Below are positions 5,728-58,901 of a stretch of DNA of 64,000 nt, one piece after another. The DNA is from Antedon mediterranea (Eukaryota; Animalia; Echinodermata), in NCBI RefSeq assembly GCF_964355755.1, contig NC_092675.1, positions 1,235,812 to 1,299,811 on the forward strand. The letters run 5' to 3'. Each line of letters opens with the position of its first letter. Positions within the stretch are counted from its first letter, which is position 1. The notes below the pieces were generated by a model that worked only from the letters and a program-made list of their open reading frames with translations, had not been told where the DNA came from and ran no database searches. The position numbers were made by a program, and so were the translations under genes.

Positions 5728-8514
5728 TTAAAGTGCGTCTGCTGGCGTCATTGATATTGGATCAAACCATCTGAATAAAATTACCTTGTTTTTATTATTA
5801 TTTCTGCCTGTTTCAGCTTGGTATGTTGGTCCCCAATCACTCCACGACTTATTGTGAAATCGTGCGCGCGCTTGTATCTTGTACCAAGTGTAGGGCGCAA
5901 GTTTACCAATTTTAATTTGATCACAATGCCGATTGTTATCAGCTGAATCCTGAAAAAAAAAATGTATTTGATAAGTATAGGCTACAAAACAACAATAGTA
6001 CAATTTCGATTTAGAACTGTATTGACTTACGTAGGCCTGTAAACTTTTTACTACGTCATCCGACTCTGAGTCATCATCTAGCTCTATAAACTCGATTTCG
6101 TCAAAGCATATGTGCACCAAACAGGTGCAACTTCTCTGTGAGAACGCAATCTAATTTCGTTACCTGGACCTATAATCGACCAAATTAGGTCCAACGAGCC
6201 AAACGTCTTTTAACGTCCAATGTCATAAGTCCTAAGTCCCTAATTCAGATACTTTACACTCAGCTCTGCATTCTCTGCACGACAATACATCAATACAAAT
6301 TATCTCTCTAACTATAACACTATATACAGACAACATAGAACGTATCTGAATGGTATAAACCATACCAGGGCTGTTAATTTGTCTATAAAAATGTCGAAAG
6401 ATACATTTCATTGGCATGCAGATCATATATTCTAACTGCAAAAGTAAATGGATGTATAACGTGCGGTGATGGACCGTAGCCAACGACTAACCAAATTCTT
6501 ACCTCTGTCCAATTGTCATCAGTATCATTCTTGCAGTAACGGATTTGGTAACGTAAGCTGGACTTTTCAGTAATATCTGGTTGTAGTTCAACCTTAATCT
6601 CCAAGTATCGTTTTCTTTCCTTTACCTTCTTAATACTAGGCGATAGAGGTATGGCAGCTAAAGCAAACAATAACATGTTGAATGGGGTTTTTGTTTGTTT
6701 GTATATCCACAAATTAATATCTATTATACACATATATAAATTGATTATTCCATAAAACACATACATAGAAGTTATTGGAACAACAAGCAGTGGGATACTC
6801 TATAAAATGCCAATAACATATTTGACTTAAACCTTCTTCCACAAAAAAAAACAAAAAAAAACAGTGTCTTTATAACCAGTAAAAATCCTTCTTACCCATG
6901 CTAGGATCAAAATAAATTTCGGTTGAGACACTGCCAAGATAATTGGTAACATTTACTCTAACACGATGGCCAATTCTACTGCCGTCTTCCCGTGGAACAT
7001 TACACCTAAATTCACGATCAGGTTCAGGGCAGGTTCTCCAAGAACTTGAGAAAAACAAGAATTATAGAATCCGTTGATTAAGTGTATACATGTTACTAGG
7101 CCTATTACAAAATGCATAAATATGCAGCTTTTGCAATGTTTAAAATGAGTGTGTCAATGCAAGTAAGTTTTGAGATAAACTGCGGTGTATTTCAGGGCTA
7201 AATGAAGATACACTTACACATGCCTGGGTACTGAATGAACTGATTGTCAAAATTGTTTGATTGTCAAAAAGCAAAAATAGTTCGAGAAAATAATGTTTTT
7301 GATAAACTCCTTATGATTCGTTGTTTCTTATTAATAACATCTACATAACGTTAAACACTGTACTTACGATTGATATTCATATTCGAATGTGTATGTATCT
7401 CTTAAATTTGTGTTCTCGATCTCTGACCACTCACACCAGTAATCATTAGTGTTTGTTGAAAAACAGTTGAGTGTTGGCTTAGTTGGTGCCACTGTAAATA
7501 AGTAATGTATCTATAACTTAATCTTTTAATGTCATTTACTGCTAGCAAACATAAATGCACCAGATCAAATAACATTGGCAATAATATAATGCAGACGATT
7601 AAATGTTCTTCTACTAAATATTTAATCGTTTTCCGAAATTTTAAAGTAAACTTACTTCCTACGTATACATATGTTCCATGCCATGACGACGAATCAGGTA
7701 AATAACAATGATATTGATCTTTGTAATTTGCCATCGTTAAGTTCTGTAATCTTAGCATAGCCTCTGAGTCTGATATGATATCTATCTGCGATGGGTCTAT
7801 TCTATCAGTATCTTTACCAAAACTAGTCGTCCATATGATATCTCTTGAGGTATACGTGGTTGATGCATCTAATGTACAAGTCAGATTTAAATCTGATCCA
7901 GCAGCTATGATAGGGTCCATTGGCGTTAAAATGACTAATAAAGTAAAAACAACGCTAAATGAAACTTTAAAAAATTTAAAATAAAACAGTTTTTAACACT
8001 TAAAAGATAATAATTATGGCTGAAGTTAGTAAACAAATCGAACCCGCTCTAAATCCTAGTGAAAAAAGTAGGCCTACATAACTCGATTGAAAATCCTTCA
8101 TTTAGTCGTTCAAAGAGAAAAATTTGAAACAATATCGTATAGTTAAAGTAGAATCTTACTTTACGCGGAAAATCTGTCAAGACGGTTGATTCTAAAATAC
8201 CTAATGCATTGTGTCCACCGCCTTATGGTCAAGTATAATAATAATATTATGGGTACGTCCGCTCATTCGTCATCCGAAATTAGAAGTTTTCCATAAAGAG
8301 ATTACACAACTATTGAAATTTCAAGCTAACCGACAAGATGAACACGTTTTAAGCTCTGTCTACACTATCAAACTTTATGTGACAAAACATATTTGGGCAG
8401 ATCACTACCATATTTGGGCACATCACACCTTTTTTTATCATGTATTTTACCTGAACGAGCATTGGCAAGAATAAACAAGCTTGCAAGTATATAGAATGTA
8501 TCCAGTGCAGTCAT
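5728..8514 (-). CDS. Class I cytokine receptor-like paralog A (signal-Ig-CBM, no TM found; putative soluble form, ~330 aa)
   Basis: Exons 8451-8514 (MTALDTFYILASLFILANARS), 7656-7934 (Ig), 7368-7491 (LNCFSTNTNDYWCEW), 6896-7044 (WRTCPE..FRCNV), 6503-6657, 5728-5949 (..KSWSDWGPTY.. read through to stop). Phases match paralogs. The 3' end is uncertain (possible donor at 5785). Confidence 0.75.
8350..8430. mobile_element. Partial MITE (ctctgtctacactatcaaact family); fuller copies at ~49915-50061 and ~58287-58428
   Basis: Shared terminus aagctctgtctacactatcaaact and internal tgcccaaatatgg / gggcacatcac in three places; inverted end gtgtagacag at 50051. Confidence 0.7.
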
Positions 8515-9149
8515 GTTTGTTTGGTCTGTGGAAGAAATAACTATTATCATTAACAAACAAGAAAAAAAAAACACATCTCAATAACAAGAAAAAGGAATCT
8601 CACTACCAAATAAAGTGCATACCTCGAACTAAAATATGATTTTACTACATAAAAATCGTCCATTGTGTGTGATTATTGCACTAAAAACTAGTGAATAGGA
8701 CAGACAGACAAAATGGGCAAAGGTAATAACAAACAAGTTAGAAATCTGTAATAATCTCAATTATTTAATCATATCAATTTATATCAATAAAATAGTTCTG
8801 TTAGAAAGCTGAAAGCAGTAATTGGACGTAGAAACTCGTTGCCACTGAGCCCAACATTTTTCGGGCTCTGCGTTCATTCACAGAATCTAAAATGAACTCT
8901 AGTTTTACCCTTTTTTTTACCGGGTTGGAATCCGGGATAAAGAGACGAATGTTATTAGATATCAATAACAATTATAAGTACACGGTTAGACTACAAGGTA
9001 TAAAACATGGTATTCTTCAAATGTTACATTTTACCATTTTTTAGATAACATAATTTTAAAATAAATTAAAATATCAAAATGCAAATTATAATAAGAATAA
9101 TAATATAATATAAATACTAATTATAATACAAGTTGTAAAACAAAGATAA

Positions 9150-15650: not shown

Positions 15651-15722
15651 CGCCCCAACCGAGACTCGAACTCGGACCGCCTGCTTGATATGCAGATGTC
15701 CTAACCATTAGACCACTGGGGC
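15651..15722 (-). tRNA. tRNA-like cloverleaf (anticodon ATC, Asp-type), probably pseudo-tRNA or SINE head within a dispersed repeat
   Basis: GCCCCAG/TTGGGGC acceptor stem, A box TGGTCTAATGG, anticodon arm TCTGC-ATATCAA-GCAGG, T arm CCGAG-TTCGAGT-CTCGG; flanks and a decayed copy recur at ~35185-35340. Confidence 0.55.
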
Positions 15723-15934: not shown

Positions 15935-15936
<2 letters not shown>

Positions 15937-15978: not shown

Positions 15979-15982
<4 letters not shown>

Positions 15983-16772: not shown

Positions 16773-19700
16773 CTACGCCTCTGAATTTTGATGCATTATT
16801 CTGAAATCATCTAACGCTATATAGCCAGTAGATAGATGTTCAATAGCATGAGGCGGATCTGGATCCTCATCACCATTTTCTGATCCAGTTGAATCTGTTT
16901 TAGTGGCACAACTAAAGTCGGTTTCTTCATTTGAAACAGTTGTGTATACATACGTGCAGTCATTAAAAGGCGGTTGGATTGAGTTTGTGGTGGTTTCAGA
17001 GATGGGCATCATGTGTGTATACTCTTCTTCCAATTCACTACTTTCGTATGGATAACATACCTCACCTCCCACCAAGTTGCCTTCATAATTCATGTGAAAA
17101 AATTCCAGTCCTGTATTTGTCTTGCCGGTTTTTAATGGAGCTCTTTCTTCCCTCTGTTTACCTTGTTCTTGCAAATAAGATGCATCCTCATCAACATTAT
17201 CTTCATTGAACTCATCCGGTCTTTTTGTAAGAAGGTCATCAAAGGTTTCTTTTTCAATTGGATGTGGCGATACACTTGGATACATTGTCTAAGTAAAACC
17301 ATAGAAATTAGAAAGAAGCATGGTAAAACCAACATGAAATAAGTTTGAACCAACAATTTAGATGGATTTATTCGTTATTGAAAAAATAGATGGCATTCCA
17401 AGGAACATTCTAGAAAAGGTATTTTTGGAAGAATGCATAATGACTTGTAGCTTGTAAGATCTAGTAGTCTCCACCACTATAAAGCATAGCGCGGTACTTA
17501 CAATAATTGGTATTCTTGGTTCTGGCCATGATCTAAAGTATTTGATATGATATTCCTTTTTATAGATATACACAACCACAAATAATGCCAGTATTATAAT
17601 ACTTGGTGCCAAGATAATCACAGGTATTCTTGAAGCTAGAAATAAAAAGATACAAGTTATATTAATATTTTGATAGTTGGCAATGAGAATTAAAGATGCA
17701 TCATCGTTATGAATCGTCTCTTTATATGAATCACTAACAATTTTGATTTTCATGTAAATTAATAAAATTGTACAACACAATAAAGTTAACTAATTGATGA
17801 TTGTCTGCTGGAAATTAGGCCTACTATAAGAATTTACAGCGACATATAAAAATATCTATTGAAATATGACCTGTACATTTGTTTTAATAATACTGTACCA
17901 ACAAATAGGCCTATCCCAATTCAAACTTTTCTGTAATTGTAATTCTCAAGCATATCATTACGTTTAGTGCGTGTAGTATTTTCGCCCGTAACTCCTATGC
18001 CTGTGACATGGTCAATGTCTGGAGAACTAGGAACTGAAGGATAAAACGGGAATAAATAAGTTTAAAATCAATGGTTTGAGTTATGAATAATACACTGTTA
18101 TGATTACCGATAAATGAATTTCTTATGCCTTCTGACCAAGGTCCAGAGTTCAATTCTAACCTAGTGCTGTTTCAATTTCACTCATTAAGCCACAAATTAG
18201 GCTGCATTGTTTATCCAGTATTATCTTCTGTTGCATGTTTTGGGAAAACAAGAAACACAATCTTGTTGATATTAGTTATTATTATACACCATAACAACTA
18301 AATGAAAATGTTTGTTATGTGTTCAATTCGTTACATGGTGTGCATTATGTAAATCTTAAAACTGTATCCACTATATAATATTGAAGTACTAATGTTTATC
18401 CTAATCCAATCAATTAAATTAACTATTATACATTGAATATAATACTTATTTATGACATAAATAATGTCGATATTAATTATGTTCAGGACTTGATAATTAC
18501 TTATTACGTATTGCAGGATGCTACTGATAATTAATAATTGAAACTTACCTTCCTGCTGACTGGTTGAGTGCACAATCTTAAGACTACTGGCACCTTCCCC
18601 TACCTTAGTACTGGCTGTCATCCACACCACATATTGCGTAAAGGCTTCCATTCCTTGAAGTCTATAAGTGATTTTACCTAAAAATTGTATTGATCGTTTA
18701 ACTATATCAGAGCCGGACGTATCTATCAGCAACAAAAACAGATTATTAACATTAATACAGTAGGCCTAAATACAATATCTTTTTAAAAACCTTTTCATGT
18801 TATTATGTACAGTATCTAAATTATTCTCTTCTGCGTTATGGTTTATTTTGTCTATATTGTTTTTATCTCAATTTATTGACTTTATTCAGATAGGATTTCC
18901 AACAAAGACCATTCTCATTTATTGCTACTTTTATTATTCTTTCTACCAAAATGTATTAAAATACTTACTTTTTTGGTAGTAAATATGGTAGTTAGTAATC
19001 ACACCATTTGGTTTCTCTGGTGGTTGACATGAAATGAATAATACAGTTGCATTTGTTTTTTCGGATTGTACTAAGAGTATTACAGGACCGGTTCCAGGAA
19101 CTATAAATAAAACAACGAATAAACAGATTATATGCAGGTTTTCCTTATAGTCTCCTACATCATTTTTCTTATTTTCCTCAGTTTTTATTTTGTTTAGTTT
19201 TCACCTTATATTTTGTCTTGGTATGCACATGCTAGATTATTCGATAAGCCTAACCAACTGTACACATACCACCTTCCAGTGTTTGAGTTGATGTAGTTGG
19301 TCCCCAATCACTCCACTCATTATTTAAAAATCTTGAACGTGCTTGTAAGTTATATTCTGTGTAGTAATCCAGACCAATAATCTTCACCGTATCATAATGA
19401 TAATTATAATCATTTGAATCCTAAAAATACGACCATAAATTTCAGTTGCAATATTTTCTCGGTGGTTTCTTCAATATAGATTTGTAACCCTTTTTAAAAT
19501 TAGTGTCAGAAATAAAAGGGTATGTATACGGTGCACAGTAACCTTTGAATCTGTAAAATGAGGTCTGTCGTCCACTAGAGATTATGGTAGCTTCATCTGA
19601 CACTGCTAACAAAAAATACTCTGATACGCTCTACAAAACATTTGTTTTACTTTAGTTTGACCTAATAGTTTTTTTCTTCAAAACATGCCGAAATAGAATC

Positions 19701-21776
19701 ATCAAACATATATATATATATTTATTTACTTTCAAATTTACATAAAATTCATACCATGGTCCAGTTGTTTGGTGAACTCCTGAGGCAATAGCGAACTTGA
19801 TAACGGTAGTACTCGTCATTTGACATAATATCGTATTGTAGATTAAAACTAACTACCAATGAAGTACTGCTTGTTTCTACATTAATATCAGGCGGGTGAG
19901 GAATAGCTGAAATAATGGCGTTAAAAAGTTGTTTTTATTTATTCATTATTTTATATAAGTTAATTATATATAAACGCGCATGTGGAACAGTCCTACCTCT
20001 ATAGAAAAAAAATAGAGAAAACTTTCAATACTCAATTGCAATTTTCAAAATATAGCCTATTGTAAAATAATATTTATTTCCTGAAAAAATGATAGCAGAA
20101 ATCACATCTTACTTTCCTTTTTAGGAGAAAAAGACATTTGAGTCGTGGCATTTCCAAGATCGTTTTTAACAGTTATCCTCACACCGTGTTCTGTTGTATT
20201 CATAATATTCCCATAGCAATCATGAGATGGAACTCTACACTTGAACGTACCGATAGGCATAGGACATATTTTCCATTCACTTGTTAAAAAATCAAAGCAT
20301 TATATATAATTAGTATTGCAGCACAGTATTCAATGTATAGGCCTACTTCTCTTCACATATTTCTGTAACACAAAACTGTTATAGTAAAACAATGGTATTC
20401 TATAAGTAACCAGTCAAGAAGGTATAATATATCATAGTTTCTTTATAATAATGTGTCCACCCCATTTGTGGGATGTGTAAACAATACTTCTTACCCTTGT
20501 TTATGTTCATATTCAAATATATAAGTTTCTACTAGATTTGTATCTTCGACCTTTGACCACACACATACATAGTTGACAGCATCGGTTGACGAACATGTAA
20601 GTATTGGCTTAGTTGGTGCCACTATAAATAGATGTATTGTAATGTAAACATTTTATACTGTTATGGTTGTTTATAGTTATCGTTATTTTATATAAGATCT
20701 TCTTTTTCCCGCCACACTAATAATAATTAAAACGTAAACTTACCTATGTGCAGCTCTGTTCCATCCGTACTATTTCTTGAATCTGGCAAACGACAATGGT
20801 ATTTATTATTATTATTAGCACCCGTTAAGTTCTGTAATGTTACCATAGCCACTGAATCTGATTAGGAGTGAGTGAGTGGCCGAGCGGTTAAGACAGTGGA
20901 ACCGTAATTACGTAGCCATAACATCGGCAGGGGTTCGAGACTCACTCACTCCATGGTTCTGGTGGTCGAACGAGTCTTCTCGGATAAGGACTATAAACCG
21001 TAGGTCCAATGTACACATCTAGCTCGTGTGCACTTTAAAGAACCTAGTACATCTTTCGAGACGAGTAGGGGGTTACCCCGGTGTATTAGTACATCACAGC
21101 CACTGACCAACTGGGAGACCAGTCTTTGACTGAAGAGTTTGCCCAGTATAAATATAGATTTCAATCAATATGTATTTCTGATTTGTTTACTTTAGTGGAA
21201 TGGGCGGAATTTTTTAAAATTTGTAAACTGATGTCGCAATTACTAGGATTCCTCTACAAAGGATTTCAATCATGAATTCATGATGTTAGAATTCACTTAC
21301 CGTTTACGATATTTTCCCGTATTTGACCTTGATACGTTGGTCCCCAGTCACTCCACTCTCTATATTTAAATTGTGAACGTGCTTGTAGGTTGTACTGAGT
21401 GTAGGGCTCAAGTTTACTAATAGTAATTGTATCATAATATCGATAGTCATCTGAATCCTGAAAAGTATATATGTAGATTGTACAGCGTAAAACAATTATT
21501 GTAGATGGAAAAAATAATGTTAACCATCTTCGTATTATTGTGTGCTGGTATTTTTCATCATCGACATCCATTATACAGTGTATACGATCGGAGGAATCGT
21601 TAAACCTAAATTCGTTTTAGTCGTCTATAAATAATTATATAACTCAACTTAATTAGTAAACGTAAATTTATATATAAATGCAAGCAGTTAAGACAGTTAA
21701 ACCGTAATTACGTACGGTAACCATAACATCAGCAAGGGTTCAAATCTCACTCGCTCCTGTTCTGGTGGTAGAACAA

Positions 21777-21808
<32 letters not shown>

Positions 21809-24800
21809 ACAGTGTACGCATCTGGCTATTATTATTATATCGATATGCTGCTGATGATGCTGATGCTGCTGCTGCTGATGATGATGATGCTAATTCAGCT
21901 GCTACTGCTGATGCTGCTGATGCTGTTGGTGATGCTAATACAGCTGCTGCTGCTGCTGCTGATGATGATGATATATGGTACTTAGATGTTAAAATCTAAG
22001 ATGAATGACAACCATAGCTTATACAATTTCACTTACCTCTGTCCAATTGTCATCTGTATGATTCTTGCAGTAACGAATTTGGTAACGCAAAGTGTTTTTA
22101 TAGTGAGTAATATCTGGTTGTAATTCAACGTTAATTTCCAATGATCTTTTTTTCCGTTCTACCTTCTTAATTCTTGGTGGAAATGGGATGGCAGCTAAAA
22201 AAACAATAACATTTAGCATGTTTGTTTTTATTGTTGCTGTTGTGGTTGTTGTTGGTTCCCCTACAGGCATACCGTACATATTTCATTAAACTGAAATGTA
22301 AATTATATTATTAATAATAAACTTTTTCTTACCCATGTCAGGATTAAAAGAACGTTGGGTTGAAACATTACCAAGATAATTGGTAACCGTTACCCTGATG
22401 CGATGGTTAGTTCCTGGGTTAAAATAATTTCCATCATCGTCTTGAAGCGGAACATTACACTTAAATTGACCTACATATTCAGGGCAGGTTCGCCAAGGAC
22501 TTCCGTTTAAAAAAATTAGAGAATCTGGTCTTTAACATGTTTGTTTGAAATACACATGGTACAATCATAATTAATTAATGATTTATCACAACAAAATGTA
22601 TATAATTATTACTGACAACAATTTTAACAAGTCTTCTTCGCATCTGTTACACTGCAGTACAAAGTTACAATTACTTTGTTGTCAAGGAATGTCTTAATTA
22701 AGTTGTTATAAGCAGTTAGTACTGCTAAAACATAATAAAAACTTGGTAATATTTGTACATGCTTTTACTTTACTGTGCCATTTTGCAATTTCAATACTGT
22801 CGTACTCACAATAGCAAGCAAGCGCAGAAATATAACAAAGGAGATACAGGCCGGTGAATAACTTTTCTGGCTGTTTGACTTTATCGTTTTGATTTAGCTT
22901 TTCGCTCGTATCTCCATCGAGATCCTGCCACTGATACCCACAGCACTTTCAGTAATTTGTCTTCGAAATTAAACACTACTTACGTTTCATACTTGTATTC
23001 AAATATATATGTATCTCTTAAATTTGTGAACTCAATCTTTGACCACTCACACCAATAATCAACAATATTTGTTGAAAAACAGTTGAGTGTTGGTTTCGTA
23101 GTTGGCGCCACTGTAAATGAAATGTTATAATGGATACTGATACTGGTTTGATATTTTTGATCCAGGAGATATGACTAGACAATGAGATTGTATAATATTT
23201 GGATAAAAGAAAAATCAAAAAATTTGTTAAGCTTTGTCTGGACTTGGTTCTCACTAGAGATGCAAGGCATAGACGTAGACAAGCGATTCGACCAATGACA
23301 AGCAACAGTTCGAATAATCCATCGCTTGTGATTGTTTAAATCACTTACGTTGCACATACGTTATTCCGTTGCGTCTGTCTAGTGAGAACCAAGCTGAATG
23401 AATGTTAGTGCAATGACGTAGTGCTTGTAGTGATTTGACCAAGCACAAGCAATGGATTATCCAATTTTACAACTCCCTGTCCAAACTGCCTCTTGCGTTG
23501 CATCTACATCATTGCTTTGCTTGTGTAATGGGAAAGAAAGACAGAGTCGTTTTGAATAGAAAATAGTATAGGCCTAAGCACTAAACATCCCGTCTTCCAT
23601 TTTGTGTAATGAACCAAGTTTTATTACAGCTTGGTAATCATAGTCATGACTATCTCATCACATGGAGAGGTCAGAATTAAATAAATTTTGTATTGATAAA
23701 TTGCTTCTCTAAACACTTGATCTTATTCCTGAATTTTAAAATAAACTTACTTCCAATATGTAAAGTTGTTGCGTGCCATAATGAATTTGGTAAATAACAA
23801 TAATATTTATAATTTGCCATCGTTAAGTTCTGCAACCTTAGCATAGACACTTTGTCTGATAATATATCTATCTCCGATGGGTCTATTCTGTCGGTATCTG
23901 GTTGGAAACTAGTCGTCCATGTGATATTTCTGGATTTATACGTAGCCGATATATTTAATGTACAACTAATATTTAAATCTGACCCAGCATGTAAGATGGG
24001 ATTCAACGGTGCTATAGTATCTAAAAATCAAAGATAAATTGTTAAATCAAATGGTGTATATTGTGATCAAAGCTGTAAAAAAAATACTAGCTACTATAGT
24101 TGGGTTTTCATCCAATTTTAGGAGGAAAATTATATAAATAATTAATTTTATTCTAATTTATCTGTCATTTTTAAAAAAAAATTGGAAGATTTCTATTAGG
24201 ACCTAGACAACTGTGATAGATTCGGAAGTACGCATACCAGTTGATGACTGAATGGTCCTTGTAAGAATAGGATTTGAGTATTTACCTGTTATATAGGTTA
24301 ATAGTATAGAATATGAGATCAAGGAGAGAGAGATGGGTGGGAGAAGGGAACATCTGATCTTTAAATATTCATGCATCATGGGCTACATGATGACCGCAAT
24401 TGTACTGTATTGTGAAAGTTTTAAACTACATTTGAAATCACTCTGGTAATAATGAAAGCAGTTATAAGTAGGGGACAAGACAAAACATTTTTTATGCAAA
24501 GAAGACATATTACAATAAGGATAGATCAAAAACCACCAAGGAGGTGGTGCATTACCATCACGCAAACTTACTTATCTGCTTTTTCATAACTTCTGTTTTT
24601 CCAATAGAATTAAACACAACGACACTAATATAAAACTGTTCAAACATTGACATTTCTGTAGGAAAATAAAATAAACGTTAACAAAAGTTTGTGTAAAAGC
24701 AGTTTGATAAGCAATATATATAAGAAGAAAACGAGAAAACAAACATTGCAAACACGGGTACGTGTGTACCTGAATTCAATTCAACACGGGTACGTGTGTA

Positions 24801-41500: not shown

Positions 41501-44500
41501 AGACGGAGTTTTGTCTTAATATTAGTAAAAAGATAAATATTTTGGCACATATGGCGTTTCATACGTATACTACTTGATTTTGGATACTCCGTCTGGGGAA
41601 ACACGCACAAGTCACGTGGTTTGACACCAAGAATTCTTGGTGCATACGATTATCCGGTTGACTAGTTTCAGCTGCATGCGATTGGCTACTCACTCGTACA
41701 CCGTTTTAATATTCATATTTCAGAATTTCAAAGACTCAACAACTAAGATGATGCGCATGCGCTATGTTACGTTTAGACAATGTGTACTTGGGTACATTTA
41801 TGAAAGTTTCTGAAGGCTAGAAATTATTTTATATACCTAGTAGTCTGGTAAACATTTGATGGCATTTTTTCCCAAGAACATGAAACTCGTCTTGATATGA
41901 TAGGCTATAGCTTCTCCGCAAATCAAACATTGAATGGATCATTTATTACGCGGAGATAATTTTGATTTAATTCCCACCCAGACCCTGTCCTGTTAAGTTG
42001 TGTGCCGGTGGTGGTATGTAGGGCTACTTTATTGGCGTTTTATTTGGCAGGTCATGCGTGCGAGTTGAGTGGGACCTACGAAAGAGGCCTAGGCCAAGGA
42101 CTAAACAATTAATAAACAAAACAACTTGGCATTACGATTTTATATTTCAACAGTCTCGATCGTACATTCAGCACTGTACGTACGTCTCGATCTTTTTCAT
42201 TTTGAAACAAAATGATCATTGGTTGATTCGAAATCCATATTTACATACCGCCCGCCCAATATAGCCAAATACGGTATGATAACCTACGTCATTCTTATCG
42301 GATGTTTGCGGTCTGCAAATCGATTTCTATACGTGTTTCACAAGTCTGTATTTTCAGACAAAAATCGCGGTCGAAATAAAAACCAATAAATTTAAAAAAA
42401 AGATAATAAAGACTTGGGGCAAGTCTAGCCAAAATCCAATGTATATTATGTCATAAAAAAAATATATAATTAATCAACCTCACATTTATAATATTACGCA
42501 AGGCTATGTTTTTATATTCAGTCTTAGGTAAAGGCAAAGGGGACATTTTAAATGGCTATATATTTGAAGTTTTCATATGCAATGCTCAACAGTGTGTGTT
42601 TAAAATGACTGGTATACTTACGATTTAGTTTCAAACTCGAATGTGTATGTATCTCTTAAATTTGTGTTCTCGATCTCTGACCACTTACACACATAATCAA
42701 CAGTATTTGTTGAAGAACAGTTGAGTGTTGGTTTAGTTGGTGCCACTGTAAATACATTAAAGTACATAATTTGTAATATGTCGTTCAATAATCATTAATA
42801 GTACAAAAAAGCGAAAATTAGCTAAATTAATTTATTAACAACATATCTGGCTTGTTACAAATGCCGGAGAGGGACTCCCGTACAGTGAACCACAAGTTAA
42901 TATACATCTTTTTCCGTATTATTCCCGTTTATGCATTACATCATTTCATTAATTAATCAGGAAAAACGGAGTGTAGATCGCGCTGTAACAAAACCATATT
43001 AAGTTTATTTTTTAGCTGTCGAATGAACAATCTTGAAAGCAATTATTTTGGTTGTGGATTTTTAATTTAACCGATTTTAAAATCACCAACAGCAACTTAC
43101 TAATATAATTATATAAGTAACGTCTGTGTTATTGCTGTGGGTTTAGAAACACCAACAACATAATGCCAAATAATAATTATGTTAGTAATATTCTCATACA
43201 ACATGTGAAGACGACAGAATTAACTACTAAATATTTAATCATTATTTAAGCTTACTTCCTACGTATACATATGTTCCATGCCATGACGAATCAGGTAAAT
43301 AACAATGATATTGATCTTTGTAATTTGCCATCGTTAAGTTCTGTAACCTTAGCATAGCCTCTGAGTCTGATATGATATCTATCTTCGATGGGTCTATTCT
43401 ATCAGTATCTTTACCAAAACTAGTCGTCCATATGATATCTCTTGAGGTATACGTGGTTGATGCATCTAATGTACAAGTAATATTTAAATTTGATCCAGCA
43501 GCTAGGATAGGGTCCATCGGTGTCATGACCACTAAAAAATCAATTTTTTGTTTAAGAAACGATAGAGTCCATTAGTGACACGATCACTAAAAAAAAGTAT
43601 AACAAAACGCTAAAAAAAACCTTGCCTATAAGGAAACATTTTATTCAACCTGAAACCCTAATGTTTTATTTTTTTAATGGTTATCCGCCATCCGATATCT
43701 GTAGGCCTAAAGTTAAAATAATTTTCTCTTCAAAGTTTGTAATTGTTCCTCGTAATTATATATCAAGAATCGTTAACCACCTGTTTAAAATGGAATATCC
43801 GTTTCTAAGAAGTTTCGATCATAATAATAATGCAATAATTATTTCCATTTTTGCTGCTTCGCAAAAGCGCACATCGGCATGTATTGATTTCATTATTAAT
43901 GGGTATAACGGATGTATTTTACACAAAAATAACGTCTTAAGAAAACATTTCTTTCCTCCTTGCGTCGTGTTTGTTTAATTTGTTGATTTGTACTATATTT
44001 TGTAAAATATGTATCGTTTGCCTGAATAAATAATAATAATAATAACATTTTTCTCAATAATTACAATTTTATAAAACGAAAGAGCAAACATTACGTGCAA
44101 AGCTTGTTTGCGGAAAAGCAAAAACAAAAAATGATTATCGAACAATAAAATGTAATTCGAAGAGTAGGTTATCATTATCAATAGATTACTTCACATGTTT
44201 TAGGTAAACAATTTACTATGTTTTCCAATAACATAAGAATATTTTAAAGATTATAATATCTCCTTGAAAAAAATGTAGTCCTATTTCGTAATTTTTTCTT
44301 TTAATATGCCATTTTCTTTTGATATAATAATATATTTGTTAGCATTTTGTTTTTGGCAAAAGTGAATATTGTAACTATTATTAGGCCTATATTAAAACTA
44401 CAAAATTGCCTATTTAAAGTTTGATTTTATTTATTTTAATTTTCATATTTTGAGGGACATAATATATATCTACAGTATTTCTGTTAAATAACTAGTTGAG

Positions 44501-44584
44501 ATGTTTACCTGCACGAGCGTTGGTATCATGAATGTAACTAAATAAAGTCCCGAGTGCGTAGATTACAGTCAGTGTTATAGCCAT
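38562..44584 (-). CDS. Class I cytokine receptor-like paralog C (SP-Ig-half CBM-S/T stalk-TM-tail, ~496 aa)
   Basis: Exons 44509-44584 (SP), 43256-43531 (Ig), 42622-42745, 41010-41173 (Cys-containing FN3), 40779-40868 and 40253-40393 (related S/T-rich stalk exons), 39568-39701 (TM IYLYILIPIVIILTFVLIAYIY + KYFKPWPEPKF), 38562-39047 (tail). Total 1491 nt, in frame. Confidence 0.78.
39172..39425 (+). mobile_element. tRNA-derived SINE, same family as 20865, in the last intron of paralog C
   Basis: gagtagctgagtagttaagacggtggaaccgtaattac...tctcggataaggac...cccagtataa. Confidence 0.8.
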
Positions 44585-48352: not shown

Positions 48353-48669
48353 AAGAACTAAGAGCCTATCGGATATCCGAAGGGCTGCTGTTCCAAAGTT
48401 TCTAAATTAGATTATGTTATGTAAAGAAAAACCTCGGAAATTATGGATATTCCCCTTTTCCCTGTTTACAACAATGGCATCAAAATAAGAACAAGCTCTG
48501 AATTACGTCATTGTTGCTGGTTCATTACACATCGCTGGCGCGCGTTCGTACCATTAACGACAAGGGAGACAGAACACGCCGCGGAATCTTCAAACGTTTC
48601 TCACAAACCGTACCTATCCAAAATCAGCACAACACAACGTGTTTACAATTATCTCATTATGAACTCCTT

Positions 48670-50264: not shown

Positions 50265-51448
50265 TCATTCTTGTTTGTTGCTAGTAATATTATCAAGAAA
50301 GTCTACTAAATTTGCTATCTCCATTTGTGAATAATCATCAATAACACTGTCTGTTTCTAATAAGCCATCCTCTAACGTATCTGATACCGAGTGTACTGCA
50401 CCAAAATGGGTTACCATGTAGTCACCAAGGAGCGGTTCACTGGCGTTGGCTTCTGGATGATCTGTGGTTGAAGTAGGTACGTATCCACAGTCTTCCATTT
50501 GAAAAGGTTCGATCGAGTTAATGCTGGTTGGAGAATCGGTAACTATTTTGGTATATGGTTCAGAATCTGAGAAGTCATTGGTAGAAGAACACTCCTCTTG
50601 TGTTCCTTTCGTTTCAGGATTCTGATTCTCATCGGTAACTATTTTAGTATATGGTTCAGAATCTGAGAAGTCATTGGTAGAAGAACATTCCTCTTGTGTT
50701 CCTTTCGTTTCAGGATTCTGATTCTCATCGGTAACTATTTTGGTATATGGTTCAGAATCTGAGAAGTCATTGGTAGAAGAACACTCCTCTTGTGTTCCTT
50801 TCGTTTCAGGATTCTGATTCTCATCGGTAACTATTTTAGTATATGGTTCAGAATCTGAGAAGTCATTGGTAGAAGAACATTCCTCTTGTGTTCCTTTCGT
50901 TTCAAGATTCTGATTCTCATCAGTAACTATTTTGGTATATGGTTCAGAATCTGAGAAGTCAGTGGTGAAAGAACACTCCTCTTTTGTTACTTTCGTTTCG
51001 GGATTCTGATTCTCATCTTTCACACATTTACCTTTGTAATTTATTGGGAAATATTCCTGTCCTGCATTTTCTGAATTTGTCACGTCACTGTTACACCCCA
51101 TTTTGTTTCCTTTCTTTACGATTTGTTCTTGTGGATAAAATGCATCATCATCATTATCGTTAAGTTCATCTTTGAAGGAGTCTGATCTACAGGCAGCATG
51201 GTTGTCATAAAATACTTGTTGCTCTTGAACATTAAGTTCTACACGAGACAGAGAAGGAGACATATCATGGAATCCTTGATCAGAGCTTGTTGTGCTCCTG
51301 ATTGAGGTTTTGCTATTGGGTCTCTTCTTAAGATCGTCAAATATCTCTTTTTCTCTTGGAGGAGGGGATAACTCTGGATCAATCACCTAAGAATAAAAAC
51401 AAAGTTTTTAACATACTGTATGAAGCAGAATGACAGTTTTAGTTTATT

Positions 51449-51483
<35 letters not shown>

Positions 51484-54400
51484 ATTTATTGCTAAAAACC
51501 AGTTACAAACAACAAAAACACAGAAACTAAGGGAGTAGGCCCCTAAAAGTGAACCTAATCACTATAACAAGAGTTCAGGTTCCGTACTCCCAAAGTAACA
51601 ACAATGATATATAATAAACTATATAAAAATATTTAAATAACAAATAGACGAATCAACAGTGTCAATATAAAATAAACGGATAAAATACATTATAGTCGAT
51701 TCAACAAAGTCAATATAAAACATGTGATTTAAGTGAATTTAAAATGCTGGAAAACTGTCTAAAATTAAAGAATGTTTAATCATTTCCGGTATTATTATGT
51801 TTCTGTATTCTGAAATAATACAGTATGAGCAGAGAAACGCCAGGCTGCTACTCAAAAGAGAAAGAAGAATAGAAACATTCAGCAATTGTAGTAAGTTGGT
51901 AAATTGGTCTAAATCAATTACCAAGTAAGAACAGTGGTTTTGTGATCTGTTTATCTGCATTTCACGAGTTGTAACGTCTAGACGGTTTTGCGATACAGTA
52001 TCCAGTTATCAGAATGTAACCCTAAGAATACTTTGTGTATTGTAAAGGTCACACATTGAAAGTAGTAAACGAAAAAATGTACTCACAATTTGTAAGATTT
52101 TTGGCTCTGGCCATTTTTTGAAGTATTTGTCGTGGTATTTACTTCTATAGATGTAGGCAACCAGAACAAATGTCAGTGAAATAAAACCTAGTATCAGGAT
52201 TAACGTAGCGATTGATGAATCTAGAATAAAGCAGATACATTTACTATCCCTGTTATTTCACTTTGGAACACATTACCTCAATCTGTAGTTGGTTCACAAA
52301 CCATATTATCATTTAAAATCAACCTTTCGAATTATTTAAAGCACATTTTAGTGAATTTTTATTTCTTTTTCTTATTGTTCTTCTGTATTAATTTAAGATA
52401 TAGTGTATTTAGACATCATATGTGTTTACTTACCAGGATCGCACTCAAAATTATCATAGATCTCAGATGCAGGTCCGGACCTGCGTGAATCATATTCGTC
52501 TTTATTGACTGCCCGAACAAGGAATTTATAATGAAGTATTTCTGTGACATCACAGCTAATAAGCAGTGTAAGAGACGTTGTCATAACCTTTTCAGTCTCA
52601 TTAATATATTGGTTGTTGTATGTGACTACATAATGGTCAATAGGTCCATTAGGATGCTTTGGTTCGCTCCATTGTAACTGTGTTGTGTCTTTCAAAAACG
52701 TTAGATCTTGAGGGGGTCCAGGAACTGAAAACGCATTTTAAAAGAGTTAGTTATTTAGTTATTAACCAAAAAAGTGTTATGTTAGATCAAGGCAATCTAA
52801 CAACAGGACACTGAGCTTGCCGTGCAATGATAGGAACTCGTAACAGTCCTTTGATCTCGTACCTGGCTGCGACAAATACCACAGAACTATGTATATTTTC
52901 TCCCCGGCGCGTGGTGTGTCTTTTAATGAGAGAGATCTGAACTGATTATTATATTTTTTCCCAAGATTTGTTAAAATCTTGAAATGTTATTGCATTGTTA
53001 TTAAATAGCTTAAGTTTTACTATTACAATATTTACCTCCTATTAATGTCTTGGTAGTATCTTTTGGAAATGCCTCCTGGCCACAAGCATAATCAGCTAAA
53101 CTTTCACTACAAGCAGACACGCTCACTATATACACAGTGTCTCCCAAAAGGTTTTCTAACATTTTGCTCTGTGTTGTCTCGAAATACAATGTGCCATTTA
53201 ACTTAATTTTATAGTGTTTAATATTTCCGTTTATTTCATTTGGTTCATCCCAAACGATTGTTAAACTGCTGTCAGTTATGTTGCTAATTATGACATTCTG
53301 TGGAACACCGGGAGCTATAGAAAAAAATGATTAGTAGTATCAAAGATTTTTCTTTAAATCCACAAAGGCAAGTGGCATTGGGCCTTTCATCAGTAAATAT
53401 ATTTCTTCATAATTGATACTATTTATATTGATATTTATTATTTCTTATTTGAAACGGAAATGCAAATGAATCAATGAGGCTGTGTGAAAAGGTGATGCAG
53501 AGTAAATCCGTAGAGAAATGTCCAAAATATCAGTATCGAAAGACATGTATATAAAGATATTTCCACTGTGATGCATTATAAAGTTGTGGGCGGTGATTGA
53601 TAATCCTTGGTATCGTTTTCTAAATTCAAAATAAATTAATCTGATGAAAGTTAGGCAACTTACTTCCCTGGCTTGTTTTCTTGGTAACATGAACACTGCT
53701 AGGCCCCTCTCCCACGTTGTTACTTACTGTCATCCACACCTTATATTCAGAGAAAGGTTTGAGGTTTCCAAGTTTATAACTTTGTTGTTCGGAATTCAGA
53801 GATAGACCATCAACATAACCATTTGGATCTAACATTAAAATACAAAATATATCGATTTAATCTGTATTCTAATAATGCAACCATAATAATTATTAATAAA
53901 AACTGATTTGTAAATACAGTATCTTTATTATAATATATACATATACTTACATTCTTGGTAGTAAATATTATATTTAGTAATTACACCATTTGGTTTTTCT
54001 GGTGGTGTCCATGTAATACTTAATACAGTTGCATTCATCTCTTCTGATTGTACTGATAGTGTAGATACATTACCTGGAACTATACCAACAAACAGTATTA
54101 ATGTTAGCTATAAAATAGTGATGATTTCTCCTAAACCACCAATCTAATTAAAATCTGACTTAATTACATGGTACTGTTAGCACGTCTAATAAAGCATATT
54201 TGTAATAAGCTACTGTAGTCTAGTAATTAACTGTTAGAGGTACGTTGGTAACATAGGTGTTGCAGGTAAGAGAGAAATTTCAAATAAGCAAAAAATACCA
54301 ACAATAAATGAAATTGAGAAAATCTCGAGATTTCGAGATTTTGATTAAATAACTTTAAAATCATTTTTTATCTCTGCTACTTGTGCAGCGTGGTTTTCCT

Positions 54401-57400
54401 GGTTCTACAAACATTTTAAAAATGTACTTCAAATGTTATATGACTTCAATAGCCACTTACTTTGTGTGTTCAAACAATATTTTAAGAGCAAGTAATTGAG
54501 CTTATAGGCCTATCAAGAATGAATAAATTAGTGTAGGCATTACACCATTACATTACACTACATTACACCATTACAGTACTATTGTTGTATAAGTTACTCA
54601 TAATCACACAAATTGTAGGCATTACACCATTACAGTACTATTGTTGTATAAGTTACTCATAATCACACAAATTTATGATTCTTGCGTCATGTTATCAAAT
54701 TGAGTTCAGATTTGCATATATATAAAGATAATGCGTTTGTGTTCTTAGTTCATATATGGTATGTCTAAAACTTCTAGAGATTACTTTTTCCTAGTATCCG
54801 CATATGGGTAAACAAGTATATATACATTGTAATGATTGCCATCTACACTTCAGACGGTATGTAAACAAGCATTGGGTTATATCTATGCAGCAAATCTAAA
54901 ACCTTTGCTAGAGAATATTTGTCATTTTACACACTGTTAAACGGCTATCAATGAAATAGCAAGCAAAAAAATAAATTATACCATTAAAGGGCACTTACCG
55001 TCTGAATGGTCAATTATCTGCTTTTTCTCAGCAGCTTCTGTGGACCCAATAGAACTATATGCAACAACACTAATGTAAAACTCATCAAACATCGAAATGT
55101 CTGTAGGAAAATAAAATATACTTTAACGCATGTTTATGTAAATTTGCATAAATAGTATGTATAATAAGTGTAATAAATGGTCATTTATTTGCTTTTGCTA
55201 AGCAGCTTATGTGGACCCAATATAACTATATGCAACCACACTAATGTAAAAGTCATCAAACATCGAAATTTCTGTAAGAAAATATAATAAATTTTAAAAC
55301 ATGTCTGTGTAAAATTGCATAACTAGTATGTATATTATAATAAGTGTAAAAGTATTAACGTACCATGTATGGTCATATTAACAGAAAAATTAGAAACATT
55401 ATGTTGTTCACTAATTGTTTGACAATCACTTTGCCACAGAGTTACTTGGTAACCTTGAAGTTTACCGTTCAGTTCATCTTCTGAAAATTTCTAAAAACAA
55501 AACAAAATTGTTTATCAAATATTTATTTTATAAATATTGGTGCCAACGCTGGTAAAGAAAACATTATACTATACCTTCCATTGCACCAGGATATCTCTTG
55601 TAAAAGTATAATTGGTAGCAGTGATATTAAAATCAACATGACCTTCGGGTTCTATTTTTAATAAAGATGTTTACTAAAATTAGTTTGGTAAACAATAAAT
55701 AATTATTGGGATTTAAACTTAAGGATTGGGTAAGAAACATCCATCATTTATGGAGAAAGATTGGAGGTACCGACTTGAGGGAGGGAGTCAGAATTAAACA
55801 CAATATTTTCCATCGCATCAAATATTCATATTATAACAGAAATTCCCTTGCTGACCATGCCACCTTCCGATGCAAACATGTTATAATTCCAGTACATACT
55901 CAAGAAAGATATTGCTTTTCAGATGTTACTCTACATAGTTTATCTACCGTTGTATCTTTTTAATCGGACTTGCTGTCAACCAACATTTCTTTGTAATTTT
56001 ACGAAGATAAATAAATGTCTTATATTATAACATTTGGTATACATTTAAAATAAGTGAAGTCTATGTATTATCAAGACTAGACAAACTTACCACCTTCCAG
56101 TGTTTGAGCTGAATACGTTGGTCCCCAATCACTCCAATCGTTATACTGAAATTGTGAACGTGCTTGTAGGTTGTACCGAGTGTAGGGCTCAAGTTTAATA
56201 ATAGTAATTGTTACATCATAACTATTGTTAACGTATAAATCCTGTAAAGCAAATTATGAAAATAATTAAAAAATATTTTACCTGTATGTGAATGCTCAAA
56301 ATATCTAATCAAATCGTAATAAAGACACAAATTTAGACAGATACTCTTAAAAACTACGACAATAATGATGAGATTATGATCATAAAACGATTACTGTGGC
56401 CTAGAATTTGCAACAGTAAATTCATATTGTACCTCTGTCCAGTTACCGTTAGTGTTATTCTTGCAGTAACGGATTTGGTAACGTAAGCTGTACGTATATG
56501 TAGTAATATCTGGTTGAAGTTCAACATTAATCGACATTGACGTATTGGTTGGCTCTACATGCTGGATATTTGGCGGAAGAGGAACAGCATCTAGACGAAA
56601 CACATTTTACATTTTGTTATTTTCCACACACAGGCAGCCGAATTCGATATGAAAGTTATACATGATATAAGTATTATTGGTGGTAAATCCAAAGGCAATT
56701 ACGGAAAATGTGACAAATAAAATTAGCACAAATTTTAATAAAAACGATAAAGTAAAACATCCAGAAAGGAAGTGCCAAGTCAGGGATAATGAGATTATTT
56801 TTATTGTTATTTCATAAAAACCATTGATTTCTCTTCAATTAACGAATTTATCCTTTTTATTAATTTTTTTATGATATATACTTTTTACTTGCGCTAATTC
56901 TTATAGCTTAATAAGTAATAAATGTTTTCTTACCTTTGCTGGGATCAAAATCAATTTTGGTTAAGGCGTTGCCAAGATAATTGCTTACTTTTACCCTGAC
57001 ACTGTGGTCAATTCCTGGATTCAAATAAGTTCCATTGTCGTCTTTAAGTGGAACATTACACTTGAAATTACCTACATATTCAGGGCAAGGATGCCAGCGT
57101 ATGTTGTTTCTGTGAAATATTAAATAATTTATTTTGGTAATTTGCATATTCAAATAAGTAGCAACATTGTATATAAGAAATAAAGTTACTTAGAAAATAT
57201 TCAATTTTTAATAGATAAAACAAGGAATCTAATTTACAACAAATTCAATCTTTAGAAAGAAAGCTTTATATGCCCTGATGAAATAAAGTGCCTTTTCTAC
57301 ACACAATTAAACACTAGGTACTTACGTTCCATCTCCATATTCGAATATATACGTATCTTTTAAATTTGTATATTGGATCTCTGACCACTCGCACCAGTAA

Positions 57401-58901
57401 TCGACTATATTAGTTGAAAAACAGTTGAGTGTTGGTTTAGATGGTGCCACTATAAATGAGTAAAAACTGTTTTTTTTTAATCTGACAAATATGATGAAGA
57501 TGATGAGTTGGTTGTTATATGGGCCTGTTTTTGGTTTGAGGTGTGTAGTGTGGGTAAAGAAGATCATGCAATTTCAAAAGGAACACATCTGTGTTATCTA
57601 TGTCGTTACATTGGTGCTAATTCAGTGTCTTTTATTTCGGAGAAATGTCATCCATATCAACAAACGTACAGACAGAAAAAGAAAAAAGAAAATTCGCAAG
57701 CAACAAGAATATTACAACTATTCAACATATTACGTTGCATGAAGCCATAGATAGATTTTCGCATATACTCATTAAAGGAAGGGACACCATCATACTGGAA
57801 CTACTGCTTCTAGAAACATTCAGTATACGCAAATATTTAATGTTAGGGCATGGTTCTATTAAACAGATTTAATTCCTGAATTTGAATGTAAACTTACTTC
57901 CTATGTGAAAATATGTTCCAGCCCATGACGACGAATTAGATAGATAACAATAATATTGATCTCTATGATTTGCCATCGTTAAGTTCTGTAACCTTAGCAT
58001 AGCCTCTAAGTCTGAAATGATATCTATCTGCGATGGGTCTATTCTATCAGTATCTTTACCATAACTAGTCGTCCATATGATATCTCTTGATGTATAAGTG
58101 GATGAATTATCTAATGTACAAGTAATATTTATATCCGATTCGACAGGTAGGATAGGATCCAACGGTGCAATGGTCACTAAAGATAATATGCAATTGATTA
58201 AGTACAGCTTTTGTACAAAAACAGCTATCAGACATAAATGTAAAGAAATTAACATTACATTAACATTAATATTGTACGAATGTCTAAAGCTCTGTCTACA
58301 CTATCAAACTAGTTTAACAAAAACAAAGTGTCATATGCCTAAATATGGTAGTGATATGCCTAAATATGGTAATGATATGACTTCATCATGTCCATTATGA
58401 GTACATCACATTTTGTTGTCACATAAAGAGCTATAAAGAAGCCTAAGTAGGGTCTAAAATATAGGAAACGATACACATTTTTCGTTGAGTATTTATAAGA
58501 AGTTCCACTTGTTGTTGAAAAGGAATATAACTAGAATCAAGCATAGCTGTGAAATGTAGTCAGTCTAATTATTTCCTTATTGCTTTCGTGTCGTATTCGT
58601 TTTATTATAGCATGCTATCTTTATAAAATAATTGTTTCCTCTATGATGCTTTCGTGATAGTTTTTTCTGGTCTGACAGGTAAAACAAAAGGAAACTTTTC
58701 TGCAGAAGATTACAATATTACAATATTATGTTTTGTTATGTATCCTTCTAATAAACAGTGGGGGTGTTTTTATTTTCAGGTAAATAATAGTAATTATTCA
58801 TGTGAGGAAAGATAAATAATAAATTGTGTTTTACCTGCACCATAACAATAGGCATGATGAATCTTAATGATTAGGCTGGCAAGTATATAAAATGTAGCCA
58901 T
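50265..58901 (-). CDS. Class I cytokine receptor-like paralog D, gp130/Domeless-like tall receptor (SP-Ig-CBM-4xFN3-TM-tail, ~1126 aa)
   Basis: Exons 58835-58901, 57898-58176, 57326-57449, 56934-57109, 56433-56590, 56091-56241 (WSDWG), 55575-55651, 55364-55490, 54999-55100, 53951-54079, 53664-53828, 53036-53314, 52434-52724, 52087-52220 (TM + KYFKKWPEPKI), 50265-51386 (tail). Total 3381 nt, all GT-AG, in frame. Confidence 0.85.
50538..51017 (-). repeat. Coding tandem repeat, 5 x 96 bp (32 aa DENQNPETKGTQEECSSTNDFSDSEPYTKIVT) in the cytoplasmic exon of paralog D
   Basis: Directly visible in ORF 50265-51386; period of 96 nt confirmed (atatggttcagaatc at 50553, 50649, ...). Confidence 0.95.
51445..51990 (-). 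mobile_element. Probable degraded retroposon 3' end with poly(A) tail in the last intron of paralog D
   Basis: Long poly-T on the plus strand at 51445-51478 followed by tttatt; weak LINE-like residues (KPLF, IKHS..LDSF) in broken frames. Confidence 0.4.
54530..54672. repeat. Short tandem duplication (~60 bp) with (cattaca)n
   Basis: ccattacagtactattgttgtataagttactcataatcacacaaatt occurs twice. Confidence 0.85.
55184..55271 (-). pseudogene. Duplicated copy of the paralog D FN3 exon 54999-55100 with in-frame stop (pseudo-exon or alternative terminal exon)
   Basis: Acceptor tttcttacag intact; reads ISMFDDFYISVVAYSYIGST*; donor lost; minus-strand AATAAA at 55184-55189. Confidence 0.75.

What the first reader, a model, noticed from the sequence alone, without database searches (positions are those of the whole stretch)
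5728..58901. Tandem array of four architecturally diversified class I cytokine receptors: a possible self-contained JAK/STAT receptor toolkit in an invertebrate
Seen: four same-strand paralogs built from the same exon set but assembled differently (soluble Ig-CBM; triple-CBM; half-CBM with stalk; tall gp130-like). Known: invertebrates are usually described with one Domeless/gp130-like receptor, and Drosophila has an adjacent short inhibitory paralog (eye transformer/latran). Vertebrates split roles among tall receptors, alpha chains and soluble partners (gp130, IL6R, CRLF1). Inference: this cluster may have independently evolved a similar signalling/co-receptor/decoy division of labour by local exon shuffling, implying unidentified helical cytokine ligands.
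Basis: partly seen in the sequence, partly recalled or inferred. Interest (0 to 1): 0.85.

Follow-up and report, generated by a model that had tools for sequence, protein, structure and literature searches.

The report
Feather-star cytokine receptor array, reshaped copies
A feather star carries a tandem array of gp130-like cytokine receptor genes (one full-length, one lacking half its ligand-binding module, one without a membrane anchor, and one that may string three binding modules together), which likely arose by local duplication and would give it several ways to tune JAK/STAT signalling, although the ligand and all functions are untested.

Summary
The array is real and lies in the crinoid Antedon mediterranea. 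Four minus-strand loci encode class I cytokine receptor modules: four cysteines with CxW, WSDWG, CRLF1/gp130 as best sequence and fold matches. G1 (tall, 1126 aa) and G2 (Ig, half CBM, disordered stalk, TM, tail; 496 aa) equal RefSeq proteins letter for letter. G4 (Ig-CBM, no TM) matches over 312 aa. G3 reads as one open 24-exon, three-CBM receptor, but RefSeq splits it into three models, and RNA-like contigs support only its last two splice joints, so one transcript is about even odds. The copies are not uncollapsed haplotypes. All window modules fall in one crinoid clade, apart from vertebrate receptors. They arose by tandem duplication, deletion, fusion and likely gene conversion. The array is not self-contained: a fifth tall paralog and further Antedon receptors lie outside the window, and other echinoderms also have tall and TM-less receptors. 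Best reading: a lineage-specific expansion with tall signalling chains and truncated modulators (Latran-like, decoy-like); functions are inferred. New variant of a known kind.

The parts
50265..58901 (-). G1: tall receptor, 15 exons, 1126 aa: signal peptide, Ig, CBM (WSDWG at 304), four further FN3, TM, Box1-like WPEP, tyrosine-rich tail
   Evidence: Exon model identical to RefSeq XP_071952712; Pfam fn3, Lep_receptor_Ig, EpoR_lig-bind; gp130 matched over residues 25-589
50535..51017 (-). Five copies of a 96-bp coding repeat in the G1 tail, repeating an EPYTKIV tyrosine motif five times
   Evidence: TRF period 96, 5.0 copies; one counterpart each in the paralogs and the Anneissia protein
55176..55284 (-). 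Duplicate of a G1 FN3 exon with an in-frame stop; skipped in the RefSeq model, would truncate G1 before the TM if included
38562..44584 (-). G2: 8 exons, 496 aa: signal peptide, Ig, N-half of the CBM only, 79-aa Ser/Thr-rich stalk from two related exons, TM, WPEP, short tail with the only YxxQ (YPAQ at 401)
   Evidence: Identical to RefSeq XP_071953499; no C-half exons in its introns; model has two folded domains and pLDDT under 50 at 230-289
29972..34858 (-). G3 module a: signal peptide, Ig, CBM1, first exon of an FN3; CBM nearly identical to the fifth paralog outside the window
   Evidence: (49 of 52 and 45 of 50 aa); RefSeq model XP_071953201 covers only signal peptide, Ig and one CBM exon, then a cryptic exon
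21301..27272 (-). G3 module b: rest of the FN3, second Ig, CBM2 (WSDWG); no signal-peptide exon of its own
   Evidence: RefSeq XP_071953200
20744..20857 (-). 3' half of a third Ig exon, cut at its 5' side by a high-copy repeat; in frame, weak acceptor, may be skipped
   Evidence: repeat depth and loose ends at 20866-21154; acceptor score -2.7
16773..20621 (-). G3 module c: CBM3 (WSDWG), one FN3, a 72-nt FN3 remnant exon (18033-17962), TM, WPEP, 171-aa tail exon
   Evidence: RefSeq 473-aa model P0009; splices remnant exon to TM and TM to tail inferred from run X1
5785..8514 (-). G4: signal peptide, Ig, complete CBM (WSDWG at 293), no TM
   Evidence: best PDB match CRLF1 by sequence (E 7e-20) and fold (E 3e-20); mean pLDDT 89.7
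5282..5461 (-). Decayed Ig exon behind G4; RefSeq uses 5450-5406 of it, out of the old frame, as G4's last exon; it also stops in the old frame
   Evidence: nhmmer E 7e-7

Best explanation
This is a tandem array of gp130/Domeless-type class I cytokine receptor genes in the crinoid Antedon mediterranea, likely made by local duplication of one tall receptor followed by deletion, fusion and gene conversion, in which the tall chain G1 would signal through JAK/STAT while the shortened copies would modulate it. Shown: the exon anatomy, family membership, crinoid-only clade and past purifying selection. Inferred: G1 and the fifth tall paralog bind an unknown secreted ligand, recruit JAK at the WPEP Box1-like site and STAT at conserved tail tyrosines, above all the distal DDYSQ. 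G4, lacking a TM, would be secreted and bind the same ligand as decoy or carrier. G2 lacks the C-half of the CBM and the distal tyrosine but keeps the Ig domain and Box1, so it would act as a Latran-like damping or partner chain. G3 is a fusion of three partial copies that, if spliced through, gives a receptor with three CBMs.
For: Family: CRLF1, CNTFR-alpha, gp130, TpoR and PRLR are the top PDB sequence hits of G4, and all 22 hits are class I receptors; Foldseek ranks CRLF1 first, then IL-27, IL-11 and IL-6 receptor-complex chains, above the first adhesion protein at rank 32. Local origin: the six window CBMs, the fifth paralog and one Anneissia protein form a clade at 99/98, inside an all-crinoid clade at 100/96 (37 rows; same shape with 82 rows). 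Ancestral tall form: the Anneissia protein and the fifth paralog share a colinear tail with G1, including WPEP, FYPQEQ, GDY and DYSQ; G2 and G3 end before DYSQ. Selection: dN/dS 0.25-0.88 in all 25 CBM-half pairings at dS 0.26-1.19, with no stop in any modelled exon. Conversion: Ig exons of G2, G3a and G4 have dS 0-0.08, against 0.26-0.43 in the next exons. Truncation: a decayed Ig exon follows G4. Precedent: Latran, a tandem short paralog that heteromerises with Dome and lacks a STAT site (PMC2914635, passages).
Against: No ligand, binding or signalling was tested. G1 and the other tall crinoid receptors have no canonical YxxQ, while G2 has one, the opposite of a simple signalling versus non-signalling split. 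dN/dS between paralogs records past constraint only; open frames survive 2-5% neutral change in 8 to 229 of 500 simulated runs, so recent decay of G3 cannot be excluded. RefSeq splits G3 in three. G3c and G2 group with the Anneissia protein (96/86, G2 half-filled, long branches), so part of the expansion may predate the Antedon lineage.
Confidence: 0.6

Rival explanations
1. Birth-and-death debris: only the tall receptors work; G3 is a set of decaying partial duplicates, and G2 and G4 are truncated copies without a fixed role.
For: RefSeq breaks G3 into three models, two without signal peptide and one ending in a cryptic exon. Decayed pieces lie all over the array: half Ig, Ig remnant behind G4, FN3 remnant, stop-bearing duplicate exon. 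Domain borders are all phase 1, so fused remnants are in frame by default. Three G3 acceptors score below the weakest of 26 training sites.
Against: No stop or frameshift in 24 G3 exons; CBM3 is 45-55% identical to all other copies yet intact; G2 and G4 have complete RefSeq models with signal peptides; the last G3 exons are spliced in an RNA-like run.
Confidence: 0.25
2. Full convergent toolkit: G4 and G2 are obligatory ligand-specific partners (like CRLF1 and IL-6R-alpha) that assemble with G1 or G3 on several helical cytokines.
For: G4 has exactly the CRLF1 architecture and best match; G2 has an alpha-chain-like disordered stalk; TM-less Ig-CBM-FN3 receptors recur in three other echinoderm classes.
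Against: G2 lacks the CBM half that alpha chains use for ligand binding (family knowledge, recalled) and keeps Box1 and a YxxQ; the likeness to CRLF1 is architectural, not orthology; no ligand gene was found in the window; more receptors lie elsewhere in the genome.
Confidence: 0.12
3. The proteins are Ig/FN3 adhesion or phosphatase-like receptors, or the array is an assembly artefact.
For: G1's best PDB sequence hits are receptor phosphatases; some relatives are named 'sidekick-like'; Pfam cytokine-receptor hits are mostly under the curated cut-off; the Ig exons of G2, G3a and G4 are 95-98% identical.
Against: The phosphatase hits cover only generic FN3 domains; the Ig-CBM part matches class I receptors alone; other exons and the introns are too diverged for haplotypes; three DNA-like runs of one sample give contigs across 17082-20227 (one in two pieces) at even depth (may be the assembly's own source).
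Confidence: 0.03

Closest known systems
gp130 (IL6ST) and Drosophila Domeless
   Same: G1: Ig, CBM with four cysteines, further FN3 domains, TM, Box1-like PxP, long disordered tyrosine-rich tail
   Different: Four extra FN3 instead of three; WSDWG for WSXWS; no YxxQ; fivefold repeated tyrosine motif; separate clade from vertebrate receptors
CRLF1 (also soluble IL-6R-alpha, CNTFR-alpha)
   Same: G4: signal peptide, Ig, complete CBM, no TM; best sequence and fold match
   Different: Arose inside the crinoid array by truncation; not an ortholog; no known cytokine partner
Drosophila Latran/Eye transformer
   Same: Tandem, same-strand shortened paralog of the signalling receptor; G2 and G3 lack the most distal conserved tyrosine
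   Different: Latran keeps a whole CBM and has no YxxQ (PMC2914635); G2 has half a CBM, a stalk and one YxxQ; here at least five copies, not two
Two-CBM receptors LEPR and LIFR (also OSMR, beta-c, TpoR; these three recalled)
   Same: Internal repetition of the CBM in one chain, as modelled for G3
   Different: PMC12284397 (Introduction) gives one or two such domains for all class I receptors; G3 would have three, each from a separate gene copy; its single transcript is unproven
Other echinoderm class I receptor models in RefSeq/GenBank (Patiria, Amphiura, Holothuria, Anneissia)
   Same: Tall and TM-less receptors in one genome
   Different: The TM-less eleutherozoan proteins keep two more FN3 domains and lie outside the crinoid clade; none of the 101 hits showed three CBMs or, among those named, a half CBM with TM apart from one Antedon splice isoform

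Membership tests
Class I cytokine receptor | Four cysteines with CxW in the first CBM domain (CX9-10 CXW X26-32 C X10-15 C, PMC1963337) | tested here: met
   All 6 N-halves have C-x9-C-x-W and two more cysteines; spacing is up to 2 residues shorter than the vertebrate pattern (24-27 after W; 8 between the last two)
Class I cytokine receptor | WSXWS motif in the second CBM domain | tested here: met
   Variant WSDWG in all 5 complete CBMs; WSEWG in Anneissia; absent from G2, which lacks that domain
Class I cytokine receptor | Ig-CBM fold like gp130/CRLF1 | tested here: met
   G4 model pLDDT 89.7; Foldseek top hits CRLF1 and IL-6-family receptor chains, TM-score up to 0.72. G1 and G3 were not folded
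Class I cytokine receptor | Single TM followed by proline-rich Box1 | tested here: met
   One hydrophobic peak and WPEP about 15 residues behind it in G1, G2, G3; conserved in other crinoid receptors, WPDP in sea urchin; JAK binding not tested
gp130/Domeless signalling chain | YXXQ STAT docking motif in the tail | tested here: not met
   0 in G1 and G3, 1 in G2; 0 in the fifth paralog and the Anneissia protein; other tyrosine motifs are conserved
gp130/Domeless signalling chain | Binds a four-helix cytokine and activates JAK/STAT | not testable with these tools
   No ligand known or found in the window
CRLF1 / IL-6R-alpha orthologs | Groups with the vertebrate soluble or alpha receptors | tested here: not met
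   G4 and G2 lie in the crinoid clade, 100/96; the vertebrate-type rows are unnamed and labelled by architecture and motif only; the AU test did not finish
Latran-type inhibitory short receptor | Heteromerises with the tall receptor and lowers signalling; no STAT site | tested here: inconclusive
   G2 and G3 lack the distal DYSQ but G2 has YPAQ; binding not tested
Multi-CBM receptor (three CBMs in one chain) | One spliced transcript through all three CBMs to the TM | tested here: inconclusive
   Open model; RefSeq splits it; X1 contigs support only the last two joints

The most novel reading that the evidence does not exclude
G3 is expressed as a single 1237-1275 aa receptor with three cytokine-binding modules, more than any described class I receptor, and together with the half-CBM chain G2 and the secreted G4 (whose Ig domains are kept almost identical) it forms a crinoid-invented receptor system for still unknown helical cytokines, convergent on the vertebrate IL-6 family.
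Probability: 0.3. Interest if true: 0.78.

Novelty: new variant of a known kind. Interest (0 to 1): 0.52.

Why it matters
Reviews treat the expansion of class I cytokine receptors into tall, short and soluble chains as a vertebrate event (PMC1963337, PMC13203501). This array shows that a non-chordate deuterostome produced the same range of architectures independently, and the homolog survey suggests that several receptors per genome is common in echinoderms and hemichordates. A secreted Ig-CBM protein such as G4 is a ready-made bait to fish for the missing invertebrate deuterostome cytokine. A three-CBM chain or a working half-CBM chain would be a new architecture in the family.

Tried and rejected
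No whole genome is held for this window, so the place of the fifth paralog and any ligand gene could not be searched. Run search: no RNA holder listed on record; 5 runs from 2 studies, one guessed to be RNA. In X1, 9 of 30 bins had no depth, among them most of the CBM3 and FN3 exons, and listed pieces ran unspliced across E2, the half Ig and the B3 donor; the tables were cut (110 joints and 23,337 pieces not shown), so this is no evidence against splicing. The idea that G2's stalk exons derive from an FN3 exon has weak DNA support (nhmmer E 0.002-0.09) and none at protein level. The AU test of one clade did not finish. The profile search meant to name short relatives returned 6 proteins and named only one more echinoderm (Diadema). 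Two hits with a repeated Ig-CBM start (P0061, unnamed, second copy nearly identical to the first; P0103, Diadema) are partial and were not taken as precedent. No complex was predicted, because no ligand is known. Three look-ups of earlier findings returned nothing. Haplotype artefact and adhesion-protein readings were rejected.
Full report
What is there. Self-comparison of the window showed repeated exon classes on the minus strand. Reading the sequence and snapping to splice sites gave four open models with GT-AG introns only. G1 (58901-50265, 15 exons, 1126 aa) is signal peptide, Ig, cytokine-binding module (CBM), four FN3, TM and tail. G2 (44584-38562, 8 exons, 496 aa) is Ig, the N-half of a CBM, a 79-aa stalk with 29% Ser/Thr, TM and tail. 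G3 (34858-16773) reads as Ig-CBM-FN3-Ig-CBM-half Ig-CBM-FN3-remnant-TM-tail, 24 exons and 1275 aa, or 1237 aa without the half Ig. G4 (8514 to 5785, then 5728 or 5406) is Ig-CBM with no TM in any reading. Profile searches per exon class found 4 signal-peptide exons, 6 N-half and 5 C-half CBMs, 3 TM and 3 tail exons, and decayed extras.

Organism and annotation. A search with one Ig exon returned 6 proteins among 32 candidates, all RefSeq models of Antedon mediterranea. G1 and G2 are identical to XP_071952712 and XP_071953499. G4 matches XP_071952674 over 312 aa, whose last 14 aa come from 5450-5409; that exon is a decayed Ig exon, so G4 is a truncated descendant of a longer copy. G3 is split into a 180-aa model ending in a cryptic exon, a 422-aa model and a 473-aa model, the last two without signal peptide. 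XP_071953994-6, a tall receptor with five extra FN3, is on a contig of the same length but not in the window.

Family. Single exons hit Lep_receptor_Ig, EpoR_lig-bind and fn3, the first two under the curated cut-offs. All 22 PDB sequence hits of G4 are class I receptors, CRLF1 first at E 7e-20 over residues 20-311. The G4 model (pLDDT 89.7) matches CRLF1 and then IL-27, IL-11 and IL-6 receptor-complex chains. G1's best sequence hits are receptor phosphatases through generic FN3 domains, but gp130 aligns over 25-589. Every N-half has C-x9-C-x-W and two more cysteines, with spacing up to two residues shorter than the pattern in PMC1963337 (passages seen). Every complete CBM has WSDWG. G1-G3 have WPEP behind the TM. 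Only G2 has a YxxQ. The G2 model folds two domains and leaves 230-289 and most of the tail unstructured.

Is G3 one gene? For: no stop in 24 exons; modules b and c have no signal-peptide exon of their own; dN/dS with the other copies is below 1 for all three CBMs. In run X1 (RNA by guess), one contig begins exactly at the tail-exon acceptor (17288) with 60 letters left over and another exactly at the remnant-exon donor (17962) with 24 left over. Those letters account for the depth of 2.61 in the bin of the TM exon, which lies between empty bins (computed 2.608). Against: RefSeq's three models; domain borders are all phase 1, so fused remnants are in frame by default; three acceptors score below all 26 training sites; other X1 pieces run unspliced through introns; and short-term neutral decay often leaves frames open (8 to 229 of 500 runs at 2-5% change, 0 to 1 of 500 at 20%). 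I put one through-transcript at about even odds.

Not an artefact. CBM exons are 59-90% identical between copies, and 33 of 34 intron pairings share under 100 alignable columns. The exception and the 95-98% identity of three Ig exons (dS 0-0.08 against 0.26-0.43 next door) point to gene conversion or a recent partial duplication. Three DNA-like runs of one sample cover 16600-21800 at even depth outside repeats; they may be the assembly's source and are not independent.

Relatives. A full HMMER search with G4 gave 101 proteins at E up to 0.001; 20 were named by look-up and one more. They include further Antedon models on two other chromosome-sized contigs, three Anneissia models, a tall and two TM-less Patiria proteins (one on a scaffold of the same length as the tall one), three Amphiura proteins, a TM-less Holothuria protein with three full-length Logan members, and two tall Glandiceps proteins; TM calls are from a hydropathy scan. 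In trees of the CBM (82 rows quick; 37 rows careful, leaving out most unnamed rows) the window modules, the fifth paralog and Anneissia XP_033111316 form one clade (99/98) inside an all-crinoid clade (100/96). The TM-less receptors of other echinoderms and the vertebrate-type rows lie outside. G3a is sister to the fifth paralog (100/99). The Anneissia tail is colinear with G1 and the fifth paralog; G2 and G3 stop before the last conserved tyrosine motif, DYSQ. The library keeps one protein per 50% cluster, so extra Anneissia copies could be hidden.

How it likely works. The ancestral state is a tall receptor. G1 and the fifth paralog would be the signalling chains. G4 would be secreted and bind the same ligand. 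G2 cannot form the CBM elbow, where such receptors bind ligand (recalled), but keeps the Ig domain, which in gp130 binds cytokine site III (recalled), and Box1; it would dampen or partner the tall chain, as Latran does for Dome (PMC2914635, passages). The near-identity of the Ig domain in G2, G3a and G4 fits a shared partner but also plain conversion. The placement of the only YxxQ in G2 counts against a neat split. All of this is inference.

Literature. PMC1963337 (passages) reports two class I receptors in Ciona and places the expansion in vertebrates. PMC13203501 (passages) finds receptors other than IL6R only in vertebrates and does not mention Antedon or crinoids in its main text; its supplements were not read and may list echinoderm accessions. 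PMC12284397 (Introduction and passages) gives one or two CBMs for all class I receptors and one receptor in amphioxus. PMC5385356 (passages) added nothing on echinoderms. Six searches listed no paper on this array or on an echinoderm expansion of the family; the library lacks most subscription papers.

Verdict. A real, already partly annotated but apparently undescribed crinoid expansion of class I cytokine receptors with unusual architectures. New variant of a known kind; interest 0.52, higher if the three-CBM transcript and a ligand are shown.

Noticed in passing
window 388-2366 (+): Three-exon-or-more gene with a PAN/apple domain and a fibrinogen C domain, facing the array tail to tail; a likely immune lectin-type protein. 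No link to the receptors tested.
   Followed up: partly
window 50535-51017: A tyrosine motif (EPYTKIV) found once in relatives is repeated five times in the G1 tail, a possible amplification of an SH2 docking site.
   Followed up: partly
window 55176-55284 (-): Duplicate FN3 exon of G1 with an in-frame stop and a normal-looking acceptor; inclusion would give a secreted Ig-CBM-FN3 form.
   Followed up: partly
proteins P0014, P0111, P0010, P0023: TM-less Ig-CBM-FN3-FN3 receptors of 559-584 aa in a starfish, a brittle star and a sea cucumber; possibly an old soluble receptor type of eleutherozoans, not resolved as one clade in the tree.
   Followed up: partly
proteins P0011, P0105-P0109, P0126: A second crinoid receptor lineage: six near-identical Antedon models on one contig and one gene on another, without a WSxWS-type motif by my pattern.
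   Followed up: partly
window 16738-16878: Run X1 holds a second, 94% alike version of the end of the G3 tail exon with a 4-base gap close to the stop; allele or further paralog.
   Followed up: no
window 24751-27022 and 32998-33996: Long minisatellites (32 bp x 71, 16 bp x 63) inside G3 introns.
   Followed up: no
window 20866-21154, 21683-21827, 39173-39380: Copies of a very high-copy interspersed repeat; one replaced the 5' half of the third Ig exon of G3.
   Followed up: partly
window 48425-49036 (-) and 31684-31935 (+): Open frames that look like ends of LINE reverse-transcriptase genes (by eye, recalled motifs); the second hosts, on the other strand, the cryptic last exon of RefSeq's 180-aa model.
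   Followed up: no
window 15636-15710 (-): A tRNA-like stretch by eye, perhaps a tRNA-derived SINE; a related piece lies near 35183-35300. Not scanned.
   Followed up: no
window 61334-64000: Complex satellite-like region of direct and inverted repeats.
   Followed up: no
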